Source of the DNA: Escherichia phage bob
DNA: 45,256 nucleotides
Reading direction: 5' to 3' (one strand)
Sequence record: NC_073072.1
Made by a program: the position numbers and the translations under genes. Below the pieces are notes generated by a model that did no database searches, was not told the DNA's origin, and saw only the letters and a list, made by a program, of their open reading frames with translations. Of the stretch, positions 4,032 through 42,883 are shown in pieces. The first letter of the stretch is position 1, and every line of letters begins with the position of its first letter.

Positions 4032-4040
4032 TTATCTTAA

Positions 4041-4072
4041 GGGTGTTCCGAAGGGAACGCCCTTTTTTTTTT
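4041..4072 (+). terminator. rho-independent terminator
   Basis: GGGTGTTCC-gaag-GGAACGCCC stem (one G-U pair) followed by T10. Confidence 0.65.
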
Positions 4073-4089
4073 AATATGAGGATTTGACG

Positions 4090-19492: not shown

Positions 19493-19555
19493 TATGCAGT
19501 CCCCTTTTTTATGCAGTTGCCGATTGATATTGTATCAGCGATTTCAAAACAAACC

Positions 19556-19745
19556 TTATTCAGTCTCAGACGAGGGGGGCCATTGACCCCCGTCTAGTCT
19601 GAAAGACTGGGGTGCTGTCCCGCTGTCCCGATCGGCTGAAAACCGCGGCAGCACTGGCGGGGACGGGGTGCTGTCCCGTTTTGTCCCGCCCCTTGTTTGT
19701 CCCGCTTTCTGTCCCGCTTACTTTATGCAATAAAACTGCATAGGT
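19556..19745. repeat. copy A of a ~180-190 bp dispersed element (G-rich hairpin plus GTCCCG iterons)
   Basis: First ~75 bp TTATTCAGTCTCAGACGAGGGGGGCCAtTGACCCCCGTCTAGTCTGAAAGACTGGGGTGCTGTCCCGCTGTCCCG near-identical to 35971-36045; both copies end TTTATGCA..TTGCATA. Confidence 0.8.
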
Positions 19746-19764
19746 ATGCACATTTACAGGGCGT

Positions 19765-19874
19765 GACAAAACGGGACGTCCCGCCTGTCCCGCTTTGAGT
19801 TTATGCAATGAAAGTGATTAGATATGCGGTTTTACAGAGGCGGGACAAAACGGGACGTCCCGCCTGTCCCGCTT
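19765..19874. repeat. two perfect 31 bp direct repeats each containing the 12 bp palindrome CGGGACGTCCCG
   Basis: GACAAAACGGGACGTCCCGCCTGTCCCGCTT at 19765-19795 and 19844-19874, inside a ~79 bp imperfect tandem unit. Confidence 0.8.
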
Positions 19875-19876
19875 CA

Positions 19877-25467: not shown

Positions 25468-25492
25468 ATTGGTTGCACTATATTGGTTGCAC
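25468..25492. promoter_or_regulatory. tandem pair of TATTGGTTGCA motifs in a divergent intergenic region
   Basis: Copies at 25468-25478 and 25482-25492, between scaffold gene start (25364) and plus-strand gene at 25514. Confidence 0.5.
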
Positions 25493-25513
25493 ACCAACAA
25501 CGAGGACACAAAA

Positions 25514-35452: not shown

Positions 35453-35758
35453 TTATTTCGCAAGCTGGGTGAATAGCTCACGCTGGGCTTTAATCCTGGC
35501 GACGTTTGTCACTGCCTTATCGCCAATACCGAAGCGATATGCCAGGCGCTCGCGGGAGAATGCACGCGCGTATTCGTGGATTGCCTTCGCCAGCGTCTTC
35601 AGTTCGTCAAGGCTGGCATCAATGCCGTCGAGCGCATACATGATTGCCTGCTGGGCCAGTATTACTACATGCGCCGCGCGGTCTGCGTTGCCGTTCAGAG
35701 CCTTCGCTTCGTCCAGCTTCGCCAGGGCCATTGCGTAATTCCAGATTAATGCTCTCAT
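35453..35758 (-). CDS. hypothetical protein (101 aa), helical
   Basis: Natural ATG; first gene downstream of the 590 bp non-coding region. Confidence 0.55.
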   Translation of the reverse strand: MRALIWNYAMALAKLDEAKALNGNADRAAHVVILAQQAIMYALDGIDASLDELKTLAKAIHEYARAFSRERLAYRFGIGDKAVTNVARIKAQRELFTQLAK

Positions 35759-35779
35759 CGTTCAGTCCTCATGTTGGTG

Positions 35780-35821
35780 TGCAACCAATATAGCAAGGTG
35801 CCAGGGCGAATGCAACCAATA
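35780..35821. promoter_or_regulatory. pair of TGCAACCAAT motifs upstream of minus-strand gene 35758
   Basis: Copies at 35780-35790 and 35811-35821; a further TATTGGTTGCC at 35901-35911. Confidence 0.5.
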
Positions 35822-35970
35822 TTAATCACGCGCATGAAAAAGTTGATCGCTATCTGCTGCAACTGCAAACTGCGTTTTTCACTCAGCATAGTGCATCTCG
35901 TATTGGTTGCCTAGTTCATCCGCGACCGCACTTCACATCATGCTGCCGTGTATTTTGCAATCTCCGGATT

Positions 35971-36158
35971 TTATTCAGTCTCAGACGAGGGGGGCCACTG
36001 ACCCCCGTCTAGTCTGAAAGACTGGGGTGCTGTCCCGCTGTCCCGCTCCTCTGGAAGCCGCGCCATCCGGGGCGGGACGGGGGTGCTGTCCCGCTTTGTC
36101 CCGCCCCTAGTCTGTCCCGCTTTTTGTCCCGTTTGGTTTATGCAGTTTTATTGCATAA
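35971..36158. repeat. copy B of the ~180-190 bp dispersed element
   Basis: Same hairpin GACGAGGGGGGCCAcTGACCCCCGTC and six GTCCCG iterons; aligns with 19556-19745. Confidence 0.8.
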
Positions 36159-36182
36159 CTATTCATTACATCCACATTACAC

Positions 36183-36302
36183 GGCAACCAACGCGACTGG
36201 ATAAAAACACTCAAAATGGCAACCAATGCGCGCAAAATTTAGTCTTTTAGCGATATGGGAATCCACATATCGGCAACCAATGCGCGCAAAATTTAATCTT
36301 TT
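36183..36302. repeat. iteron-like direct repeats GGCAACCAA(T/C)GCG(CGCAAAATTTARTCTTTTA) next to an AT-rich tract; candidate replication origin
   Basis: Three copies starting 36183, 36217, 36271; the last two are 32 bp near-identical; AT-rich 36136-36180. Confidence 0.45.
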
Positions 36303-36345: not shown

Positions 36346-38634
36346 TTATGACAATATTCGACGACCCATAGATGGCTCCGGTGTGTGGGTCTGTATAAAA
36401 ACCGAGTACGCCGCGCTCGACCATATCGTCGATTGCCTTCGTCGATGTGCCACCTTTCGCAAGCCCAGCCTGGCGGACAATTGCCGATTTACTGAATCCG
36501 GTATGGTCCGGGTTATCTTCGATGTGCCACCTTTCGCAAGCCCAGCCTGGCGGACAATTGCCGATTTACTGAATCCGGTATGGTCCGGGTTATCTTCCAT
36601 CAGTTTTTCCAGCGCTGCATAAAGCACTTTCTCTTTTTCGTTGCGCGGTCCTGCTGCGTTCTCTTCCTTAACTGCTGCCTTGCCAGCGGCCTTCGCCTGT
36701 TCGATGGCGAACGGTGCCAGGGCGACCGGTACGAGGTAAAGAGTCTCGTCGCGTGGCGTGGAGGCAATTGGCTTGACGTCCCAACCGGCAACTACATCGC
36801 CGAAGTCCGGCCCGGTGCTGGTGGACTGGTGTGCCTCGAACGCCTCGGACTTGCGGAGATCCACCTTAACTTTGCACTTGAGCAGGACGAAGCCACGCGG
36901 CGCTTGCTTGATGCCGTTACGTGACTTCTCATGATACAGGTTCAATTGTCCGGGCTGGTTGTCGTCCGGCTGTTCCAGGAAGAACGCAGAATCGACAGCA
37001 CCATGCAGCGCGCCGGACCCGCGGGGAGATCTGCTGCCGTTTGAACCTTTCGCCGGGTGGTGGATGACGCCCGCACTGCCGCCTGTATTTTCCGCAATGG
37101 CCTTCAGCGCTTTGACCACTTCGCCCATATCGCTGGCGTTGTTCTCGTCGAACGGTTTTGCATCGGCGGACCGCAGCGCAACAGTCTGGTTGAGTGAGTC
37201 GAACGCCACCAGGCCAACCGGCTCGCCGTTAGCGGTGCGGTTGATGAAGCTGATAACTTCACGCAAGCCAGATTTGCTGGTGATATCCCATCCGCGTGAT
37301 TGCAGATCGATAATGTGCAGCTTGTCCAGGTCGTGCTCATATTTGATCTGCAGTGCTTCTTTACGCTGGTTGGAGGCCTCACCACCTTCCGCATCGAAAT
37401 AGAAGCAATGAGACTGGACGACCTTCGCACCGCCGAACGGAATACCGGCAGATACTGACGCCATCTGGCCCAGCACGTAGAACGACTTGCCAATGTTCGA
37501 TTCGCCAGCCATATACCAGGTCGATTTGAAGTTGACCAGGCCTTCGATGATCGGGTCGTGCTTACTGAACAGTGCGACCGGCTCGTTGTCCAGGTCTGCA
37601 TCAGTACACACGCCGTACTCGTCGCCGTCTCCGACCGCATCAACGATATGTTCATAGCACGATTCCACTTCCTCATCGTCCAGTCCCGGAAGGATGGCGG
37701 CGATTTGCTTACGTGACATGTTGTGCGGCTCGACGTTCAGGTGGTCCGGGATCCCGATAAGACGTAGCGCCAGGTGCTGGTGTCTGTTCAGTTCCGAGCA
37801 ACACTCGTTGCCGGTGTGCATACACTTGAAACGGATCTCGCCATCCTTAACCATGATAGCGGTGGACCCTTCGCCGCTGTGCAGGTGTTCGTTCGGGCAT
37901 GGCACTTCATAACCACGACCAGACGACAGCGGTTCGAATCCCGCCTGGAAGCACCAATCCAGAATACCGTCCGCCACACCATCATCGCCCTGGGTCAGTT
38001 CGCGGCGTACTTCCTCTTTCTCGACTCCCAGCTTGTCCGCCAGGCGGAGAAGACGACGGACGCGGGCGCGCTTGCCGTAGTGGCACTTAACGACAGACTG
38101 CTGATGTGGCAGGTACATAAGGCGGTTTGTGTCTTTTGTACAGTCGTCGAAGTCCACATCTGACAGACCAAGTTGGTGTAATAGCGCATACTGGACACGG
38201 CCCAGGTCTTCAGCCGGTACAGGCTTGTCCGTGAGTACCAGGAATCGAGCGCAACGCGTGCCGCCTTTCAGCGGGTGGCGGTCGCCGGTTGTGGTGTGAA
38301 ATACGTGCTCCAGCCCCGCGTCGATGAAAGCCTTACGGCAGCGGCGTAGGGTGCGGGTGTCGGTACGGTCAATATCGAAGAACAGGATCGAGCGGTCCAC
38401 CGCACTGGTCTTGCGGCGTAAGCCGTCACTGGTATACGCTACGATGCCATCGGCCTTACGCTTGCGGCGCGCATACTCGGCTTTATCTTCCGTCTTGTTG
38501 ATATGCACCGACGATATCTCTTTCGCATCTTTGATAAATTCGAAAAATTCATCGGTCGTCATCCGGAAGTTTTCCGCCCTGGCTTTTTCGCCTTTTTTAG
38601 CGGGTCGTGTTACAGCGAATTTAATTAAGCTCAT
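36346..38634 (-). CDS. primase-helicase (AEP-type primase N-terminus, Zn-binding middle, P-loop helicase C-terminus), with an altered C-terminal tail
   Basis: 762 aa; FFDIDRTD primase-like, CPNEHLHSGE...CMHTGNEC, Walker A GESNIGKS, Walker B LVAFDSL; 3' end carries a 77 bp tandem duplication. Confidence 0.8.
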   Translation of the reverse strand: MSLIKFAVTRPAKKGEKARAENFRMTTDEFFEFIKDAKEISSVHINKTEDKAEYARRKRKADGIVAYTSDGLRRKTSAVDRSILFFDIDRTDTRTLRRCRKAFIDAGLEHVFHTTTGDRHPLKGGTRCARFLVLTDKPVPAEDLGRVQYALLHQLGLSDVDFDDCTKDTNRLMYLPHQQSVVKCHYGKRARVRRLLRLADKLGVEKEEVRRELTQGDDGVADGILDWCFQAGFEPLSSGRGYEVPCPNEHLHSGEGSTAIMVKDGEIRFKCMHTGNECCSELNRHQHLALRLIGIPDHLNVEPHNMSRKQIAAILPGLDDEEVESCYEHIVDAVGDGDEYGVCTDADLDNEPVALFSKHDPIIEGLVNFKSTWYMAGESNIGKSFYVLGQMASVSAGIPFGGAKVVQSHCFYFDAEGGEASNQRKEALQIKYEHDLDKLHIIDLQSRGWDITSKSGLREVISFINRTANGEPVGLVAFDSLNQTVALRSADAKPFDENNASDMGEVVKALKAIAENTGGSAGVIHHPAKGSNGSRSPRGSGALHGAVDSAFFLEQPDDNQPGQLNLYHEKSRNGIKQAPRGFVLLKCKVKVDLRKSEAFEAHQSTSTGPDFGDVVAGWDVKPIASTPRDETLYLVPVALAPFAIEQAKAAGKAAVKEENAAGPRNEKEKVLYAALEKLMEDNPDHTGFSKSAIVRQAGLAKGGTSKITRTIPDSVNRQLSARLGLRKVAHRRRQSTIWSSAAYSVFIQTHTPEPSMGRRILS
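36443..36596. repeat. perfect 77 bp tandem duplication inside the primase-helicase coding region
   Basis: 36443-36519 and 36520-36596 are identical; 77 is not a multiple of 3, so the second-read copy is translated in a shifted frame. Confidence 0.85.
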
Positions 38635-38644
38635 TGCCGTTGCC

Positions 38645-38974
38645 TTACTTAGAAGTTTTATTATTGCGTACCCAGGAGCGCACTGTGCTCTGATTAATTC
38701 CGGTCAACTCGGCAATCATCGCCCAGGATTTGCCCTCGGCGCGCAAACGGATAACCTGTTTTTTGTATTCTTCCATTTCTTCATTGTGCTTTTGCAGCTT
38801 GCTTGCTGCCGTGCCGTTGAGCAATTCCAGCCTGGCGCGTAATTCTTTTTCGGTAAGTCGCAGACGTTCGATTTCAAATAGCACCGCACCCACGGCATCG
38901 GTATACGCCCAAGACCGGCTTGTCTCACTGCAAACAGTCTTAGTTAACATTTCGATTGCGTCGTCGATATTCAT
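38645..38974 (-). CDS. HTH DNA-binding protein (putative regulator)
   Basis: 109 aa; C-terminal KSWAMIAELTGINQSTVRSWV helix-turn-helix; GGAG RBS; first gene of the leftward early operon. Confidence 0.6.
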   Translation of the reverse strand: MNIDDAIEMLTKTVCSETSRSWAYTDAVGAVLFEIERLRLTEKELRARLELLNGTAASKLQKHNEEMEEYKKQVIRLRAEGKSWAMIAELTGINQSTVRSWVRNNKTSK

Positions 38975-39181: not shown

Positions 39182-39377
39182 TCACCCCGTCGACAGGATG
39201 CAGGACGCAAACTGGAGAGGGGCAACGCAGGGGCCGGATCGAAGTGTCAGGATTCCCAACCGTGATTATATAACCCGGTCCACTACCCGAACGGGAGAAC
39301 GCGCAACCGGGCAATATGTTAAGGCCACCGACGAAGTTAACTGCCGACACCTAAACTTAACCAATCGGAGATATACC

Positions 39378-39899
39378 ATGTTTGAGCAAATCGTAAACCT
39401 GATCACTCGCGGCGTAGTAGCACTGGAAACCATCGCTAAGCATTATGAAACCGTTGGCGCTGCCGTTGGTAAACAGGAAGATAAGAAGCCGTCTAAGGCG
39501 AAAAAAGAAGTTGTCGAAGATGACGACGATGAAGCTGAAGACGAAAAACCGGCTAAATCTAAAAAAGCACCGGCGAAAGGTAAGGCTAAAAAAGAAGTCG
39601 TAGAAGATGACGACGACGATGCCGAAGACGATGCCGAAGACGAAAAACCGGCTAAGTCTAAAAAAGCGAAAGGCAAAGGTAAGAAAGATGCCGATCCGCT
39701 GGCGGAGATGCGCGACGAAATCAAACAGTATGCCGCGATTATTGCGGGTGGTGATGACGACGACGCGAACGACGAATTCGACGACCTGCTGGAATCGTTC
39801 GAGATCAAATCAATCGCCAAGCTGGAAGATGACGACGTCGAAGACTTCCACAAAGAGCTAAAAGAAATCGTCGAAACCTATTTCGAACTGGAAGATTAA
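39378..39899 (+). CDS. highly acidic low-complexity repeat protein (first gene of rightward early operon)
   Basis: ATG 39378 with GGAG RBS; repeats KKEVVEDDDDEAEDEKPAKSKKA; an in-frame upstream ATG at 39198 is a possible alternative start. Confidence 0.6.
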   Translation: MFEQIVNLITRGVVALETIAKHYETVGAAVGKQEDKKPSKAKKEVVEDDDDEAEDEKPAKSKKAPAKGKAKKEVVEDDDDDAEDDAEDEKPAKSKKAKGKGKKDADPLAEMRDEIKQYAAIIAGGDDDDANDEFDDLLESFEIKSIAKLEDDDVEDFHKELKEIVETYFELED

Positions 39900-39947
39900 T
39901 ATATTCCGGCCCGCAGATTAGCGGGCCTCTTTTTAGAGGACGAGACA

Positions 39948-40199
39948 ATGGCACGCTTCACGCTAATCGAGGCGGTGGACTCCCGCGACCAACGCCCTTA
40001 TTATTGGCTATTCGAACGCATCGGCAACTTTCAGTCACGCGTTGCCGTAATAGATAAACGCCGCAATACTCCCGCGCAAATTAAGCGCACCACCTTTATC
40101 AATCCTGACTTTTATATTTGGGCTGATTCCAATCTGGAATATGTTCGCTTCGCCGTTGCATCCGAAGCAAGAACAATTGACCGCTGGGAGACAAAATAA
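39948..40199 (+). CDS. hypothetical protein (83 aa)
   Basis: Natural ATG; stop overlaps next start (TAATG). Confidence 0.5.
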   Translation: MARFTLIEAVDSRDQRPYYWLFERIGNFQSRVAVIDKRRNTPAQIKRTTFINPDFYIWADSNLEYVRFAVASEARTIDRWETK

Positions 40200-42010: not shown

Positions 42011-42100
42011 CCGCTTAGGCGCAACCAAGTAGATTAGCAACCAAGCCGGACGGGGTGGCTTCCAATAACCCCGATACATGTGAAAATGAGGAATTGGAAA

Positions 42101-42883
42101 ATGGCTAAAGTCAACCTGAAAAATGTGCGCGTATGTTTCCTGAAAATTTGGGAACGTGATACCCCTAAACAGGATGGGCAAAAACCGGCATACCGTGCCG
42201 TGATTCTTCTTGATAAAGAAGATCCGCAGGTGGACAAAGTGGAAGAGGCAGCGCGCGCAGTGCTCACCGACAAGCTGAAGTCCGAGAAGAACGCCGATAA
42301 GTGGATGGACCGCCACTACGCCCAGGATTCGAAGGAATGCGCAGTTCGCGACGGTGACGAGCGCGACGAAGTGACCGAAGAATTCGAAGGCATGTTGTAT
42401 ATCAACGCCAAATCGTTCAAACAGCCTATCATTCAAACGTCACTCGGCGAGAAGCAGACTGAACAAGGTCTGACCATCGACGGCGACGAGATTGAAGGCC
42501 AGGAGATCTACTCCGGTTGTTATTGCAACGTGTCCCTTGATATTTGGGCATGGAACAATACCAACGGCAAGGGTCTCGGGGCTGGCTTGCTGGGTCTGCG
42601 ATTCCGTGAAGACGGCGAAGCCTTCGGAGGTGGCGGGTCTTCTTGCTCCGATGAAGACCTGGACAACGACGACGAAGACGAAGCACCGCGCAAGTCCAAA
42701 AAGTCAAAACGTCGTGATGTCGATGATGTAGATGACAAGCCGCGCAAGTCCAAGAAATCCAAGCGCCGCGATGACGACGACGATGAGGAAGATGAAAAAC
42801 CTCGCAAACGTCGTAAGCCACGCGATGACGAAGATGAGGACGACGACGAAGACGAAGCGCCACGTAAACGTCGCCGCCGTTAA
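42101..42883 (+). CDS. ssDNA-binding protein, T7 gp2.5-like (DUF2815-type), with charged repeat tail
   Basis: ATG 42101 with GAGGA RBS; MAKVNLKNVRVCF N-terminus; three C-terminal repeats DEAPRKSKKSKRRD. Confidence 0.65.
   Translation: MAKVNLKNVRVCFLKIWERDTPKQDGQKPAYRAVILLDKEDPQVDKVEEAARAVLTDKLKSEKNADKWMDRHYAQDSKECAVRDGDERDEVTEEFEGMLYINAKSFKQPIIQTSLGEKQTEQGLTIDGDEIEGQEIYSGCYCNVSLDIWAWNNTNGKGLGAGLLGLRFREDGEAFGGGGSSCSDEDLDNDDEDEAPRKSKKSKRRDVDDVDDKPRKSKKSKRRDDDDDEEDEKPRKRRKPRDDEDEDDDEDEAPRKRRRR

What the first reader, a model, noticed from the sequence alone, without database searches (positions are those of the whole stretch)
19556..19745. A ~180 bp structured element present twice (19.56 kb and 35.97 kb), built from a G-rich hairpin plus GTCCCG iterons
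19556-19630 and 35971-36045 are near-identical over ~75 bp (one mismatch). Each holds the imperfect inverted repeat GACGAGGGGGG-CCAtTGA-CCCCCGTC and AGTCT-gaa-AGACT, then 6 or more copies of GTCCCG at roughly helical-turn spacing (10-16 bp), ending TTTATGCA...TTGCATA. The two copies are in the same orientation, both intergenic, about 85% identical overall. GTCCCG occurs about 10 times in 260 bp in copy A and 6 times in copy B, against about 0.06 expected per strand by chance. Such iterons suggest cooperative binding of one protein at two loci (replication initiator, packaging or late-transcription factor), or a small mobile/recombinogenic element.
Basis: seen in the sequence. Interest (0 to 1): 0.75.

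Follow-up and report, generated by a model that had tools for sequence, protein, structure and literature searches.

The report
Duplicated iteron-and-hairpin origin-like element
A roughly 200-bp block of six-base protein-binding repeats plus a conserved hairpin sits just after this coliphage's primase-helicase gene and again inside its tail-gene cluster; it most likely marks the phage's replication origin and a second origin-like site, a known kind of arrangement that has not been tested in this phage group.

Summary
The window is a complete Dhillonvirus genome (about 96% identical to Escherichia phage mckay). Copy A (19556-19750) and copy B (35971-36165) are 85% identical. Of 34 GTCCCG/CGGGAC boxes in the genome, 13 lie in A and 7 in B, against about 0.09 and 0.04 expected.

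In nine Dhillonviruses and a sister lineage (primase 69%, tape-measure 57% amino-acid identity), both clusters sit at the same two loci. The boxes are invariant, while spacers, some box orientations and the hairpin loop vary. This points to double-stranded DNA protein-binding sites plus a structural hairpin.

Outgroups whose primase-helicases are 44-47% identical carry one cluster of lineage-specific repeats directly after that gene's stop codon. phiEap-2 and Shemara also share the layout of AT-rich palindrome, repeats and hairpin. So B is ancestral and A is a later duplicate.

The primase-helicase ends in a predicted winged helix, and an HTH protein is encoded just upstream.

Best reading (confidence about 0.45): B is an iteron origin, as in SaPI Rep or P4 alpha, and A is a second origin-like site, as in SPP1 oriL/oriR. 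No binding or replication was tested. The Sodalis phage SO-1 GenBank record already flags both regions.

The parts
19493..19875 (.). Region A: the whole non-coding gap between the tape-measure start (ATG at 19492-19490, minus strand) and the stop codon of the tail-chaperone frameshift product.
   Evidence: It corresponds to the 'repeat_region region A' annotated in Sodalis phage SO-1.
19556..19750 (.). Copy A core, the 195-nt repeat unit.
   Evidence: (D2).
19561..19608 (.). Extended imperfect hairpin of copy A: CAGTCT / CAGACG-A-GGGGG [variable loop] CCCCC-GTCTAG / AGTCTGAAAGACT.
   Evidence: It folds at z = -3.5 to -5.0 on either strand. The stem is invariant and the loop varies across 12 sequence variants. 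Sister copy A shows one compensatory outer pair.
19617..19716 (+). Core iterons of copy A. GTCCCG boxes start at 19617, 19625, 19673, 19683, 19699 and 19711. A degenerate inverted box (GGGGAC) lies at 19661-19666.
   Evidence: In the 17-copy alignment, 32 of 36 box columns are invariant, against 34 of 97 non-box columns.
19723..19742 (.). AT-rich palindrome TTATGCA-ATAAAAC-TGCATA. Its 7-nt centre is the exact reverse complement of the centre in copy B.
   Evidence: (I20).
19760..19874 (.). Two extra modules found only in region A (19760-19795 and 19839-19874). Each is a four-box near-palindrome, CGGGAC-AAAA-CGGGAC|GTCCCG-CCT-GTCCCG. A TTTATGCA... segment follows the first, and the second abuts a shorter ATTATGCGG remnant.
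   Evidence: (D10, I2, I4).
19529..19537 (-). Candidate extended -10 (TGATACAAT on the minus strand) between the hairpin and the tape-measure start. This is inferred only.
   Evidence: Read directly. ATTGTATCAG is invariant in all Dhillonvirus A copies. The consensus scan did not report it.
35759..36291 (.). Region B: the non-coding gap between the native primase-helicase stop (36294-36292, as in mckay) and the start of the next gene at 35758.
   Evidence: It corresponds to SO-1 'region B'.
35971..36165 (.). Copy B core, the 195-nt repeat unit.
   Evidence: D2.
35976..36023 (.). Extended hairpin of copy B.
36032..36131 (+). Iterons of copy B. GTCCCG boxes start at 36032, 36040, 36088, 36098, 36114 and 36126. 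An inverted CGGGAC lies at 36073.
36138..36158 (.). AT-rich palindrome TTATGCA-GTTTTAT-TGCATAA.
   Evidence: It is homologous to GAATAGTTATGCAGAAAAAGTGAATA in Shemara and phiEap-2.
36166..36291 (.). AT-rich stretch with three (A)TTGGTTGCC repeats (two exact ATTGGTTGCC and one GTTGGTTGCC), lying between the palindrome and the primase-helicase stop. It is a possible unwinding region.
   Evidence: (D14).
35780..35820 (-). Sigma-70-like promoter downstream of copy B: TTGCAT, 17 nt, TATATT, within the ATTGGTTGCA motif.
   Evidence: Read. The consensus scan missed it because its -35 hexamer matches only 3 of 6 positions.
36346..38634 (-). Primase-helicase gene (AAA_25 RepA-like helicase core, C-terminal winged helix). 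In this window a 77-bp tandem duplication (36439-36592) frameshifts the ORF.
38645..38974 (-). 109-aa protein with a coiled coil and an HTH, first gene of the primase-helicase operon. It is the alternative candidate for binding the boxes.

Best explanation
Region B is the phage's iteron-type replication origin, and region A is a retained duplicate that acts as a second origin-like binding site.

Proposed mechanism (every step is inferred; none was tested here):
1. A phage initiator binds the double-stranded GTCCCG boxes. The favoured candidate is the C-terminal winged helix of the primase-helicase. The alternative is the upstream coiled-coil HTH protein.
2. The resulting nucleoprotein complex melts the adjacent AT-rich palindrome and flank.
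3. The RepA-like helicase loads itself onto the opened DNA.
4. The conserved extended hairpin at the other end of the box array forms on the exposed single strand and serves as a priming or loading signal.
5. Region A, 16.4 kb away inside the tail operon, either fires as a second origin or, as proposed for SPP1 oriR, holds bound initiator that stalls forks and helps switch replication to concatemer synthesis.
For: 1. The boxes behave like double-stranded protein-binding sites.
- GTCCCG is invariant in 17 aligned copies, while spacers change by substitutions and 1-nt indels.
- Boxes occur in both orientations, and box 5 is flipped in sister copy A.

2. Both clusters sit at the same loci in all nine Dhillonvirus genomes read: 13-14 boxes in A (8 in Kente, whose record is broken inside region A) and 7 in B. 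The divergent Dhillonvirus Ioannina and a sister lineage show the same two clusters. 156 of 157 phage records contain region A.

3. Outgroups with homologous primase-helicases (44-47% identity) carry lineage-specific repeats directly after that gene's stop codon.
- phiEap-2: 9 CGGACA boxes.
- Shemara: 7 of the genome's 9 GGGGAGA boxes.
- Smarc3: 4 TTCCGCACA boxes, with one more inverted pair in its late region.
- phiEap-2 and Shemara keep the same order of AT-rich palindrome, iterons and hairpin.

4. The primase-helicase has an AAA_25 core. Its C-terminus is modelled as a winged helix (pLDDT 75-88). The Foldseek top hits are mostly winged-helix proteins, including MarR family, linker histone H1 and ORC subunits.

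5. The putative recognition helix of that winged helix differs between lineages that have different boxes.

6. phiEap-2 has an almost identical box but no homologue of the HTH protein. This favours the primase-helicase as the binder.

7. Published precedents exist.
- SaPI Rep and PriRep: a C-terminal winged helix recognises 6-12 penta- or hexanucleotide iterons located immediately downstream of the rep ORF (PMC9371898).
Against: - No binding, melting or replication data exist for any of these phages.
- The cumulative GC skew turns at the gene-orientation switches (about 7 kb and 39 kb), not at A or B.
- In SaPI origins the AT-rich segment is central between opposed iterons. Here the segment between the box sets is GC-rich and the AT-rich DNA is lateral.
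- DnaA boxes are not enriched.
- Position at the early/late boundary, followed by a promoter, fits a transcriptional role equally well.
- In this window the primase-helicase ORF loses the winged helix's putative recognition helix and wing through the 77-bp duplication. If the duplication is real and the phage is viable, that domain cannot be the essential box binder.
- The winged-helix fold matches are generic and weak (best Foldseek E = 6e-3).
Confidence: 0.45

Rival explanations
1. The element is a transcriptional control region. A phage DNA-binding protein, for example the 109-aa HTH protein, occupies the box arrays at the early/late boundary (B) and in the middle of the 29-kb late operon (A). 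It acts either as a roadblock or insulator against read-through, or as an upstream activator of the promoter that follows each copy.
For: - Both copies lie between transcription units on the same strand, and promoter-like sequence follows each.
- Downstream of B: TTGCAT, 17 nt, TATATT at 35780-35820.
- Downstream of A: a conserved TGATACAAT before the tape-measure gene.
- The HTH half of the 109-aa protein is nearly invariant across Dhillonvirus and the sister group, as the boxes are.
- Palindromic four-box units resemble operators.
Against: - The conserved core contains no sigma-70 promoter on either strand.
- The distance from the core to the downstream promoter differs greatly between the copies, about 35 bp in A and about 160 bp in B.
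- The promoters after the element are near-consensus in Dhillonvirus, phiEap-2 and Shemara. They need no activator and are too far from the boxes to be occluded.
- Seven to fourteen boxes per site is unusual for an operator.
- phiEap-2 has nearly the same box without this HTH protein.
Confidence: 0.22
2. The functional part is RNA. The roughly 57-nt extended hairpin in the late transcript is an RNase III processing or stability site, or a put-like antitermination signal. It is present once at the start and once in the middle of the long leftward operon.
For: - The hairpin is stable on the transcribed (minus) strand: -28.4 kcal/mol, z = -5.0.
- The stems are conserved and the loops vary.
- An analogous hairpin with different sequence exists in phiEap-2 (z = -3.9).
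- Both copies are co-oriented with transcription.
Against: - No Rfam family matches.
- The hairpin folds equally well on the other strand and as DNA.
- It is always attached to the box array, and the boxes work in both orientations, so the array cannot be an RNA motif.
- It is not an intrinsic terminator, because no U-tract follows it in any lineage.
Confidence: 0.1
3. The element is a packaging (pac) recognition site. The hexamer arrays bind the small terminase subunit, as with the two hexamer clusters of the P1 pac site.
For: - Dhillonviruses package by the headful mechanism (PMC9022532 and PMC10059673).
- The Smarc3 GenBank record places its pac site in the intergenic region downstream of the primase-helicase.
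- A few GenBank records begin or end inside region A.
Against: - Two pac sites 16 kb apart would be odd.
- The small-terminase gene is distant from both copies, and it matches the GP3_package / Sf6_terminase families only weakly.
- Records that break inside the element are more simply explained as assembly breaks at a repeat. In Kente, exactly the shared repeat segment is missing.
- The Smarc3 pac position is about 370 bp beyond its repeats.
Confidence: 0.05
4. The element is a small mobile or recombinogenic element (MITE-like) that inserted twice.
For: There are two dispersed, co-oriented copies. Segments are exchanged between A and B in some phages: KarlBarth copy B carries an A-type right half.
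Against: - There are exactly two copies at the same loci in all genomes and in the sister lineage.
- There are no terminal inverted repeats or target duplications.
- There is no match in E. coli genomes or plasmids.
- Outgroups carry the homologous single copy at the B locus.
- A-to-B identity within a genome is barely higher than between genomes (0.905 against 0.888).
Confidence: 0.02

Closest known systems
SaPI replication origins with Rep / PriRep self-loading helicase initiators (Staphylococcus pathogenicity islands)
   Same: - Short hexanucleotide iterons, 6-12 in number, lie just downstream of the initiator ORF.
- The initiator is a helicase, fused to a primase in SaPI5, with a C-terminal winged helix that reads the iterons.
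- Iterons occur in two sets with some opposed orientation.
- Iteron sequence is lineage-specific (PMC9371898).
   Different: - The helicase here is RepA/DnaB-like (AAA_25), not superfamily 3, and shows no sequence similarity to SaPI Rep.
- The segment between the two box sets is GC-rich rather than AT-rich.
- A conserved extended hairpin and a second genomic copy are present here.
- The host is a virulent coliphage, not a satellite.
Bacillus phage SPP1 oriL / oriR
   Same: - It is a 44-kb virulent headful-packaging siphovirus with two similar origin sequences, each made of direct repeats plus an AT-rich region.
- One origin lies by the replication genes, and the other interrupts the conserved virion-assembly gene order.
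- The second site is proposed to stall forks and trigger the theta-to-sigma switch (PMC6316719).
   Different: - The SPP1 initiator gp38 is a separate origin-binding protein, with its own loader and a DnaB-type helicase.
- oriL lies inside gene 38.
- There is no sequence relationship.
- Binding is demonstrated for SPP1 and untested here.
Satellite phage P4 ori / crr with alpha protein (from my own knowledge; not re-read here)
   Same: One multifunctional primase-helicase with a C-terminal DNA-binding domain recognises short repeats at two separate cis sites, several kb apart.
   Different: P4 uses octamer repeats, a different primase and helicase family, and a different gene context.
RSF1010 oriV with RepA, RepB' and RepC (from my own knowledge)
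   Same: A RepA-family helicase is shared (Pfam AAA_25; weak profile match to PDB 1G8Y, E = 0.079). Iterons lie next to hairpin single-strand initiation signals.
   Different: RSF1010 has 20-bp iterons bound by a separate RepC protein and two ssi hairpins on opposite strands. Here there is one extended hairpin, 6-bp boxes and a fused protein.
GenBank annotation of Sodalis phage SO-1 (GQ502199): 'repeat_region' regions A and B
   Same: These are the same two loci. They are described there as direct, inverted and palindromic repeats with mutual similarity.
   Different: It is an annotation note only. The tool cuts it off after 'possible ...'. I found no analysis or experiment in the searchable literature.

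Membership tests
Iteron origin served by a helicase initiator with a C-terminal winged helix (SaPI Rep / P4 alpha type) | An array of short (5-8 bp) repeats located directly 3' of the initiator ORF. | tested here: met
   Region B starts at the native stop codon, and its boxes begin about 160 bp further on. In the outgroups, repeats begin 7-23 nt after the stop.
Iteron origin served by a helicase initiator with a C-terminal winged helix (SaPI Rep / P4 alpha type) | The initiator combines a helicase with a C-terminal winged-helix DNA-binding domain. | tested here: met
   The core is AAA_25. The AF2 model of the last 136 aa gives helix-helix-helix-strand-strand with pLDDT 75-88. The Foldseek top hits are mostly winged-helix proteins, but all are weak (E >= 6e-3).
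Iteron origin served by a helicase initiator with a C-terminal winged helix (SaPI Rep / P4 alpha type) | A central AT-rich region flanked by opposed iterons. | tested here: not met
   The 40-bp segment between box 2 and box 3 is GC-rich. The AT-rich DNA (palindrome and flank) lies to one side.
Iteron origin served by a helicase initiator with a C-terminal winged helix (SaPI Rep / P4 alpha type) | A superfamily-3 helicase homologous to SaPI Rep or P4 alpha. | tested here: not met
   Pfam gives AAA_25 (RepA-like) only. There is no PDB sequence match to Rep or alpha.
Iteron origin served by a helicase initiator with a C-terminal winged helix (SaPI Rep / P4 alpha type) | The initiator binds the iterons, and the site supports replication. 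| not testable with these tools
   This needs gel shift or ChIP and plasmid-replication or marker-frequency assays.
Two-origin arrangement of SPP1 (oriL / oriR) | Two similar sequences, each with direct repeats plus an AT-rich segment. One lies by the replication genes and one interrupts the morphogenesis genes. | tested here: met
   Related phages have the tail chaperone abutting the tape-measure gene with no gap.
Two-origin arrangement of SPP1 (oriL / oriR) | Both sites are bound by the same origin-binding protein. | not testable with these tools
   This is inferred only, from identical boxes at both sites.
Intrinsic (Rho-independent) terminator | A GC-rich hairpin immediately followed by a U-tract. 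| tested here: not met
   No T-run follows the G-rich hairpin on either strand. The scan hits only box palindromes inside region A and nothing in B. The same holds in phiEap-2 and Shemara.
Curated RNA families (Rfam 15) | A covariance-model match at the gathering score. | tested here: not met
   There are 0 matches in the whole window.
Sigma-70 promoter within the repeat core | -35 and -10 hexamers at 16-18 nt spacing. | tested here: not met
   No site falls inside 19556-19750 or 35971-36165.
DnaA-dependent origin | A cluster of DnaA boxes (TTATNCACA). | tested here: not met
   There are 30 one-mismatch matches genome-wide against 26 expected. One falls in region A (19744) and none in region B.
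pac site of the P1 type (hexamer clusters bound by the small terminase) | The terminase cleavage series maps to the site. | not testable with these tools
   Raw reads are not available. The literature reports headful packaging without a position.
Miniature mobile element | Variable copy number or location, terminal inverted repeats, and presence in other replicons. | tested here: not met
   Two copies sit at fixed loci. There is no match in E. coli genomes or plasmids.

The most novel reading that the evidence does not exclude
This phage lineage (Dhillonvirus, its sister lineage and the related phiEap-2, Shemara and Smarc3) uses a previously uncharacterised origin type. A fused primase and RepA-like helicase loads itself through its own winged helix onto 6-9-bp boxes that abut a conserved single-strand hairpin (a priming signal). 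Dhillonviruses have in addition fixed a second copy inside the tail operon. That copy works as a programmed fork barrier or second origin that times the switch to concatemer synthesis, possibly coupling replication to expression of the distal tail genes.
Probability: 0.25. Interest if true: 0.6.

Novelty: new variant of a known kind. Interest (0 to 1): 0.45.

Why it matters
- Dhillonviruses are among the coliphages most often isolated, and they feature in therapy collections and defence-system studies (BASEL, Avs2, OLD). Their origin of replication has never been mapped.
- A defined candidate origin gives a direct handle for several uses: engineering, testing how defences such as OLD sense replication intermediates (HK578 escape mutants map to the primase-helicase and its promoter), and asking whether the SPP1-style two-site control of the theta-to-sigma switch is general.
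- The cross-genus pattern of lineage-specific boxes directly after the primase-helicase stop codon is a simple rule for predicting origins in this whole phage clade.
- For annotation, it shows that the short ORFs and 'terminators' called inside these regions in many GenBank records are probably spurious.

Tried and rejected
- Rfam scan of the whole window: no match.
- Promoter and terminator scans of both regions: nothing in the core. The 'terminators' reported in A are box palindromes.
- DnaA boxes: the palindrome arms resemble TTATNCAC in some phages, but there is no enrichment in the window.
- GC skew: it follows gene orientation only.
- IMG/VR scan for three GTCCCG boxes in a row: 120+ loci, almost all unrelated GC-rich contigs. 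Its only use was recovering the sister-lineage contig.
- PDB sequence searches with the primase-helicase, alone and as a profile: only a weak RepA hit and a spurious BurrH hit.
- PDB sequence search and Foldseek on the 109-aa protein: a generic LuxR / resolvase-type HTH.
- Literature on Dhillonvirus, HK578, SO-1 and PhageTerm: nothing about the repeats. The EE09 'cos' site maps to 4034-4043, not to the element.
- Host or plasmid origin of the element: no match.
- Concerted evolution of A and B: within-genome identity is only marginally higher than between genomes. Similarity is therefore kept mainly by selection, with occasional exchange.
- Jerseyvirus SETP13 and phage DUEC01 (helicase about 32-34% identical): no iterons after the gene. 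An ordinary terminator and an opposed HTH gene lie there instead. The rule therefore holds only for the closer clade.

Full report
**What the window is.** The 45,256-bp window is a complete, circularly permuted genome of a Dhillonvirus (HK578 / SO-1-like virulent siphovirus of E. coli). Most of it is 91-100% identical to Escherichia phage mckay. Genes from about 39.2 kb through the window end and on to 7.1 kb run rightward and encode replication and early functions. Genes from 38.97 kb down to 7.17 kb run leftward, in this order: a 109-aa HTH protein, the primase-helicase, small ORFs, lysis genes, terminase, head genes, tail genes.

**Checking the observation.** The two stretches form a 195-nt direct repeat at 85% identity (D2).
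- The first 75 nt differ at one base.
- GTCCCG/CGGGAC occurs 34 times in the window: 13 in 19617-19871 and 7 in 36032-36131.
- From the outside rate, 0.09 and 0.04 are expected (P = 3e-24 and 2e-14).
- Core spacings are 8, 48, 10, 16 and 12 bp in both copies, so they are irregular rather than helical.
- Copy A continues rightward with two more 36-bp four-box near-palindromes (D10).
- The 20-mer TTATGCAATAAAACTGCATA in A is the exact reverse complement of its counterpart in B (I20). It is a palindrome-armed segment whose 7-nt centre is flipped between the copies.

**Genomic context.**
- Copy A fills the 383-bp gap between the stop of the tail-chaperone frameshift product and the tape-measure start. 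In related phages those two genes abut or overlap (Shemara and Smarc3).
- Copy B lies in the roughly 530-bp gap after the primase-helicase gene.
- Both copies have the same orientation relative to leftward transcription.

**Comparative anatomy within the genus.** I aligned A and B copies from nine phages: the window, mckay, SO-1, JL1, KarlBarth, B2, EP23, LM40P1 and Kente.
- The six direct boxes are invariant (32 of 36 box columns; the other four reflect a 1-nt register shift), against 34 of 97 non-box columns.
- Spacers carry substitutions and single-base indels, which also rules out coding.
- A seventh box in inverse orientation sits between boxes 2 and 3. In several phages it forms a perfect CGGGACGTCCCG palindrome.
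- The G-rich hairpin keeps its stem, AGACG-(A)-GGGGG / CCCCC-GTCT. Its 7-8-nt loop changes freely across 12 variants.
- Together with the flanking AGTCT/AGACT segments, it folds into a roughly 57-nt imperfect hairpin on either strand (z = -3.5 to -5.0).
- Every genome read has exactly two clusters: A with 13-14 boxes (8 in Kente, whose record breaks inside region A) and B with 7. 156 of 157 phage records cover region A.
- A-to-B identity within a genome is barely above that between genomes. KarlBarth copy B carries an A-type right half. Selection with occasional exchange therefore keeps the copies alike.

**A sister lineage.** A lineage known only from metagenomes (primase 69%, tape-measure 57% amino-acid identity) has both clusters at the same two loci.
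- It has the same boxes and the same hairpin, with a different loop.
- Copy A shows one compensatory outer pair (A-T to G-C).
- Box 5 is flipped in copy A.
- Orientation-independent, invariant boxes in variable spacers indicate recognition of double-stranded DNA by a protein, not an RNA motif.

**Outgroups.** Phages whose primase-helicase is 44-47% identical lack GTCCCG clusters. They carry other repeats directly after that gene's stop codon.
- Enterobacter phage phiEap-2 has nine CGGACA boxes in the pattern +++++-++-. GAATAGTTATGCAGAAAAAGTGAATA precedes them. An AGTCT-TAGC-AGACT hairpin and a G-rich hairpin follow them. This is the same order of parts as region B.
- Salmonella phage Shemara has 7 of its genome's 9 GGGGAGA boxes there, with the same AT-rich palindrome and G-rich hairpins.
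- Serratia phage Smarc3 has two TTCCGCACA-N11/12-TGTGCGGAA units there, plus one more unit in its late region and none elsewhere.
- phiEap-2 and Shemara have a single copy. Region B is therefore ancestral, and region A is a duplication fixed in the Dhillonvirus-plus-sister ancestor.
- More distant helicase relatives (Jerseyvirus SETP13 and DUEC01) have no such array.

**Candidate binding proteins.**
- The primase-helicase has an AAA_25 (RepA-like) core and matches PHROG 'replicative helicase-primase'. Its N-terminal region matches no Pfam family.
- Its C-terminus is modelled as a winged helix. The Foldseek top hits are mostly winged-helix proteins, but they are weak.
- The putative recognition helix differs between lineages that have different boxes.
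- The 109-aa protein upstream is a coiled coil plus HTH. Its HTH half is almost invariant in Dhillonvirus and the sister group.
- That protein is absent from phiEap-2, Shemara and Smarc3, which have a Cro/CI-type HTH gene in its place. Because phiEap-2 has nearly the same box without it, I favour the primase-helicase as the binder.
- Caveat: in this window a 77-bp exact tandem duplication frameshifts the primase-helicase ORF and removes the winged helix's putative recognition helix and wing. I cannot tell whether this is an assembly artefact or a real mutation.

**Interpretation.** The best-supported reading is an iteron origin at B with a second origin-like copy at A. Two published systems work this way.
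- SaPI Rep/PriRep initiators read 6-12 hexanucleotide iterons placed immediately downstream of rep, through a C-terminal winged helix (PMC9371898).
- SPP1 has two similar origins, one of them interrupting the virion-assembly genes. The second is thought to stall forks and trigger concatemer synthesis (PMC6316719).
- This is a functional analogy, not family membership: the helicase class differs, the central segment is GC-rich, and nothing was tested biochemically.

**Rival readings.**
- Transcriptional roadblock or activator, confidence 0.22. Each copy is followed by promoter-like sequence. However, the core has no promoter, the spacing to the promoter differs between copies, and the downstream promoters look constitutive.
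- An RNA-level role for the hairpin, 0.10.
- A pac site, 0.05.
- A mobile element, 0.02. There is no match in E. coli genomes or plasmids.

**Prior knowledge.** I found no paper that analyses them. The feature is therefore already noticed but not explained. What is new here is the comparative evidence: invariant boxes, flipped boxes, the sister lineage, lineage-specific arrays after the primase-helicase stop codon, and the winged helix.

Noticed in passing
window 1069, 4005, 4022, 5938, 9348, 25468, 25482, 32716, 35247, 35789, 35820, 35902, 36227, 36281, 39174: The nonamer ATTGGTTGC has 15 exact copies (30 matches at up to 1 mismatch, against 12 expected). Almost all are intergenic and most are oriented with local transcription. 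It contains a -35-like TTGCA(T/A), followed 16-18 nt later by a TAnnnT -10 at several sites. It looks like a genus-specific early-promoter or regulator-binding motif. The 'ATTGGTTGCC' variants flanking copy B lack a -10. Shemara and phiEap-2 have an analogous (A)TGTTGGCTG motif.
   Followed up: partly
window 36439-36592: An exact 77-bp tandem duplication (one mismatch) lies inside the primase-helicase ORF. It frameshifts the protein after ...GLAKGGTS and replaces the native last 48 aa, which include the winged helix's putative recognition helix and wing, present in mckay and in P0001. It is either an assembly artefact or a real mutation.
   Followed up: partly
window 25478-25499 and 35772-35793: A 22-nt exact inverted copy, TATATTGGTTGCACACCAACA. 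The same -10 and 5'-leader stand in front of a rightward moron gene (start about 25507) and the leftward gene starting at 35758.
   Followed up: no
window 4034-4043: The 10-nt 'cos' end ATCTTAAGGG that PhageTerm reported for Dhillonvirus EE09 (PMC10673088) maps here. It lies at the -10/+1 of a tandem ATTGGTTGCA promoter and next to a T10 terminator-like hairpin (4059-4088), far from either repeat. Other Dhillonviruses are reported as headful packagers, so the call looks doubtful.
   Followed up: partly
window 39505-39683 and 42649-42867: Acidic/basic peptide-coding repeats (DDDEAEDEKPAKSKK-like) are shared by two early ORFs, 39198-39899 and 42080-42883 (D1, D3, D5).
   Followed up: no
L143 (Serratia phage Smarc3) 39628-39687, 10436-10465 and record position 1: The genome holds three 30-bp palindromic TTCCGCACA units: two directly after the primase-helicase and one in the late region. 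The GenBank record places the pac site about 370 bp further on, in the same intergenic region.
   Followed up: partly
L149 (phiEap-2) 39898-40140; L144 (Shemara) 38170-38400: These are single-copy homologues of region B, with CGGACA and GGGGAGA boxes respectively. In Shemara two short 'hypothetical protein' ORFs are annotated over the array (38192-38332 and 38360-38485). They are probably spurious.
   Followed up: partly
L017 (Kente), H45, H48, H58: Several GenBank Dhillonvirus records begin or end inside region A. In Kente, part of the segment shared with region B is missing at the junction. This looks like assembly breakage at the 195-bp repeat rather than true genome ends.
   Followed up: partly
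window 19566-19808 (minus strand) and the equivalent positions in other records: An 80-aa ORF spans the iteron array. Many records annotate short hypothetical proteins or an ARNOLD 'terminator' there (for example PTXU06). Indels between phages show that the region is non-coding.
   Followed up: yes
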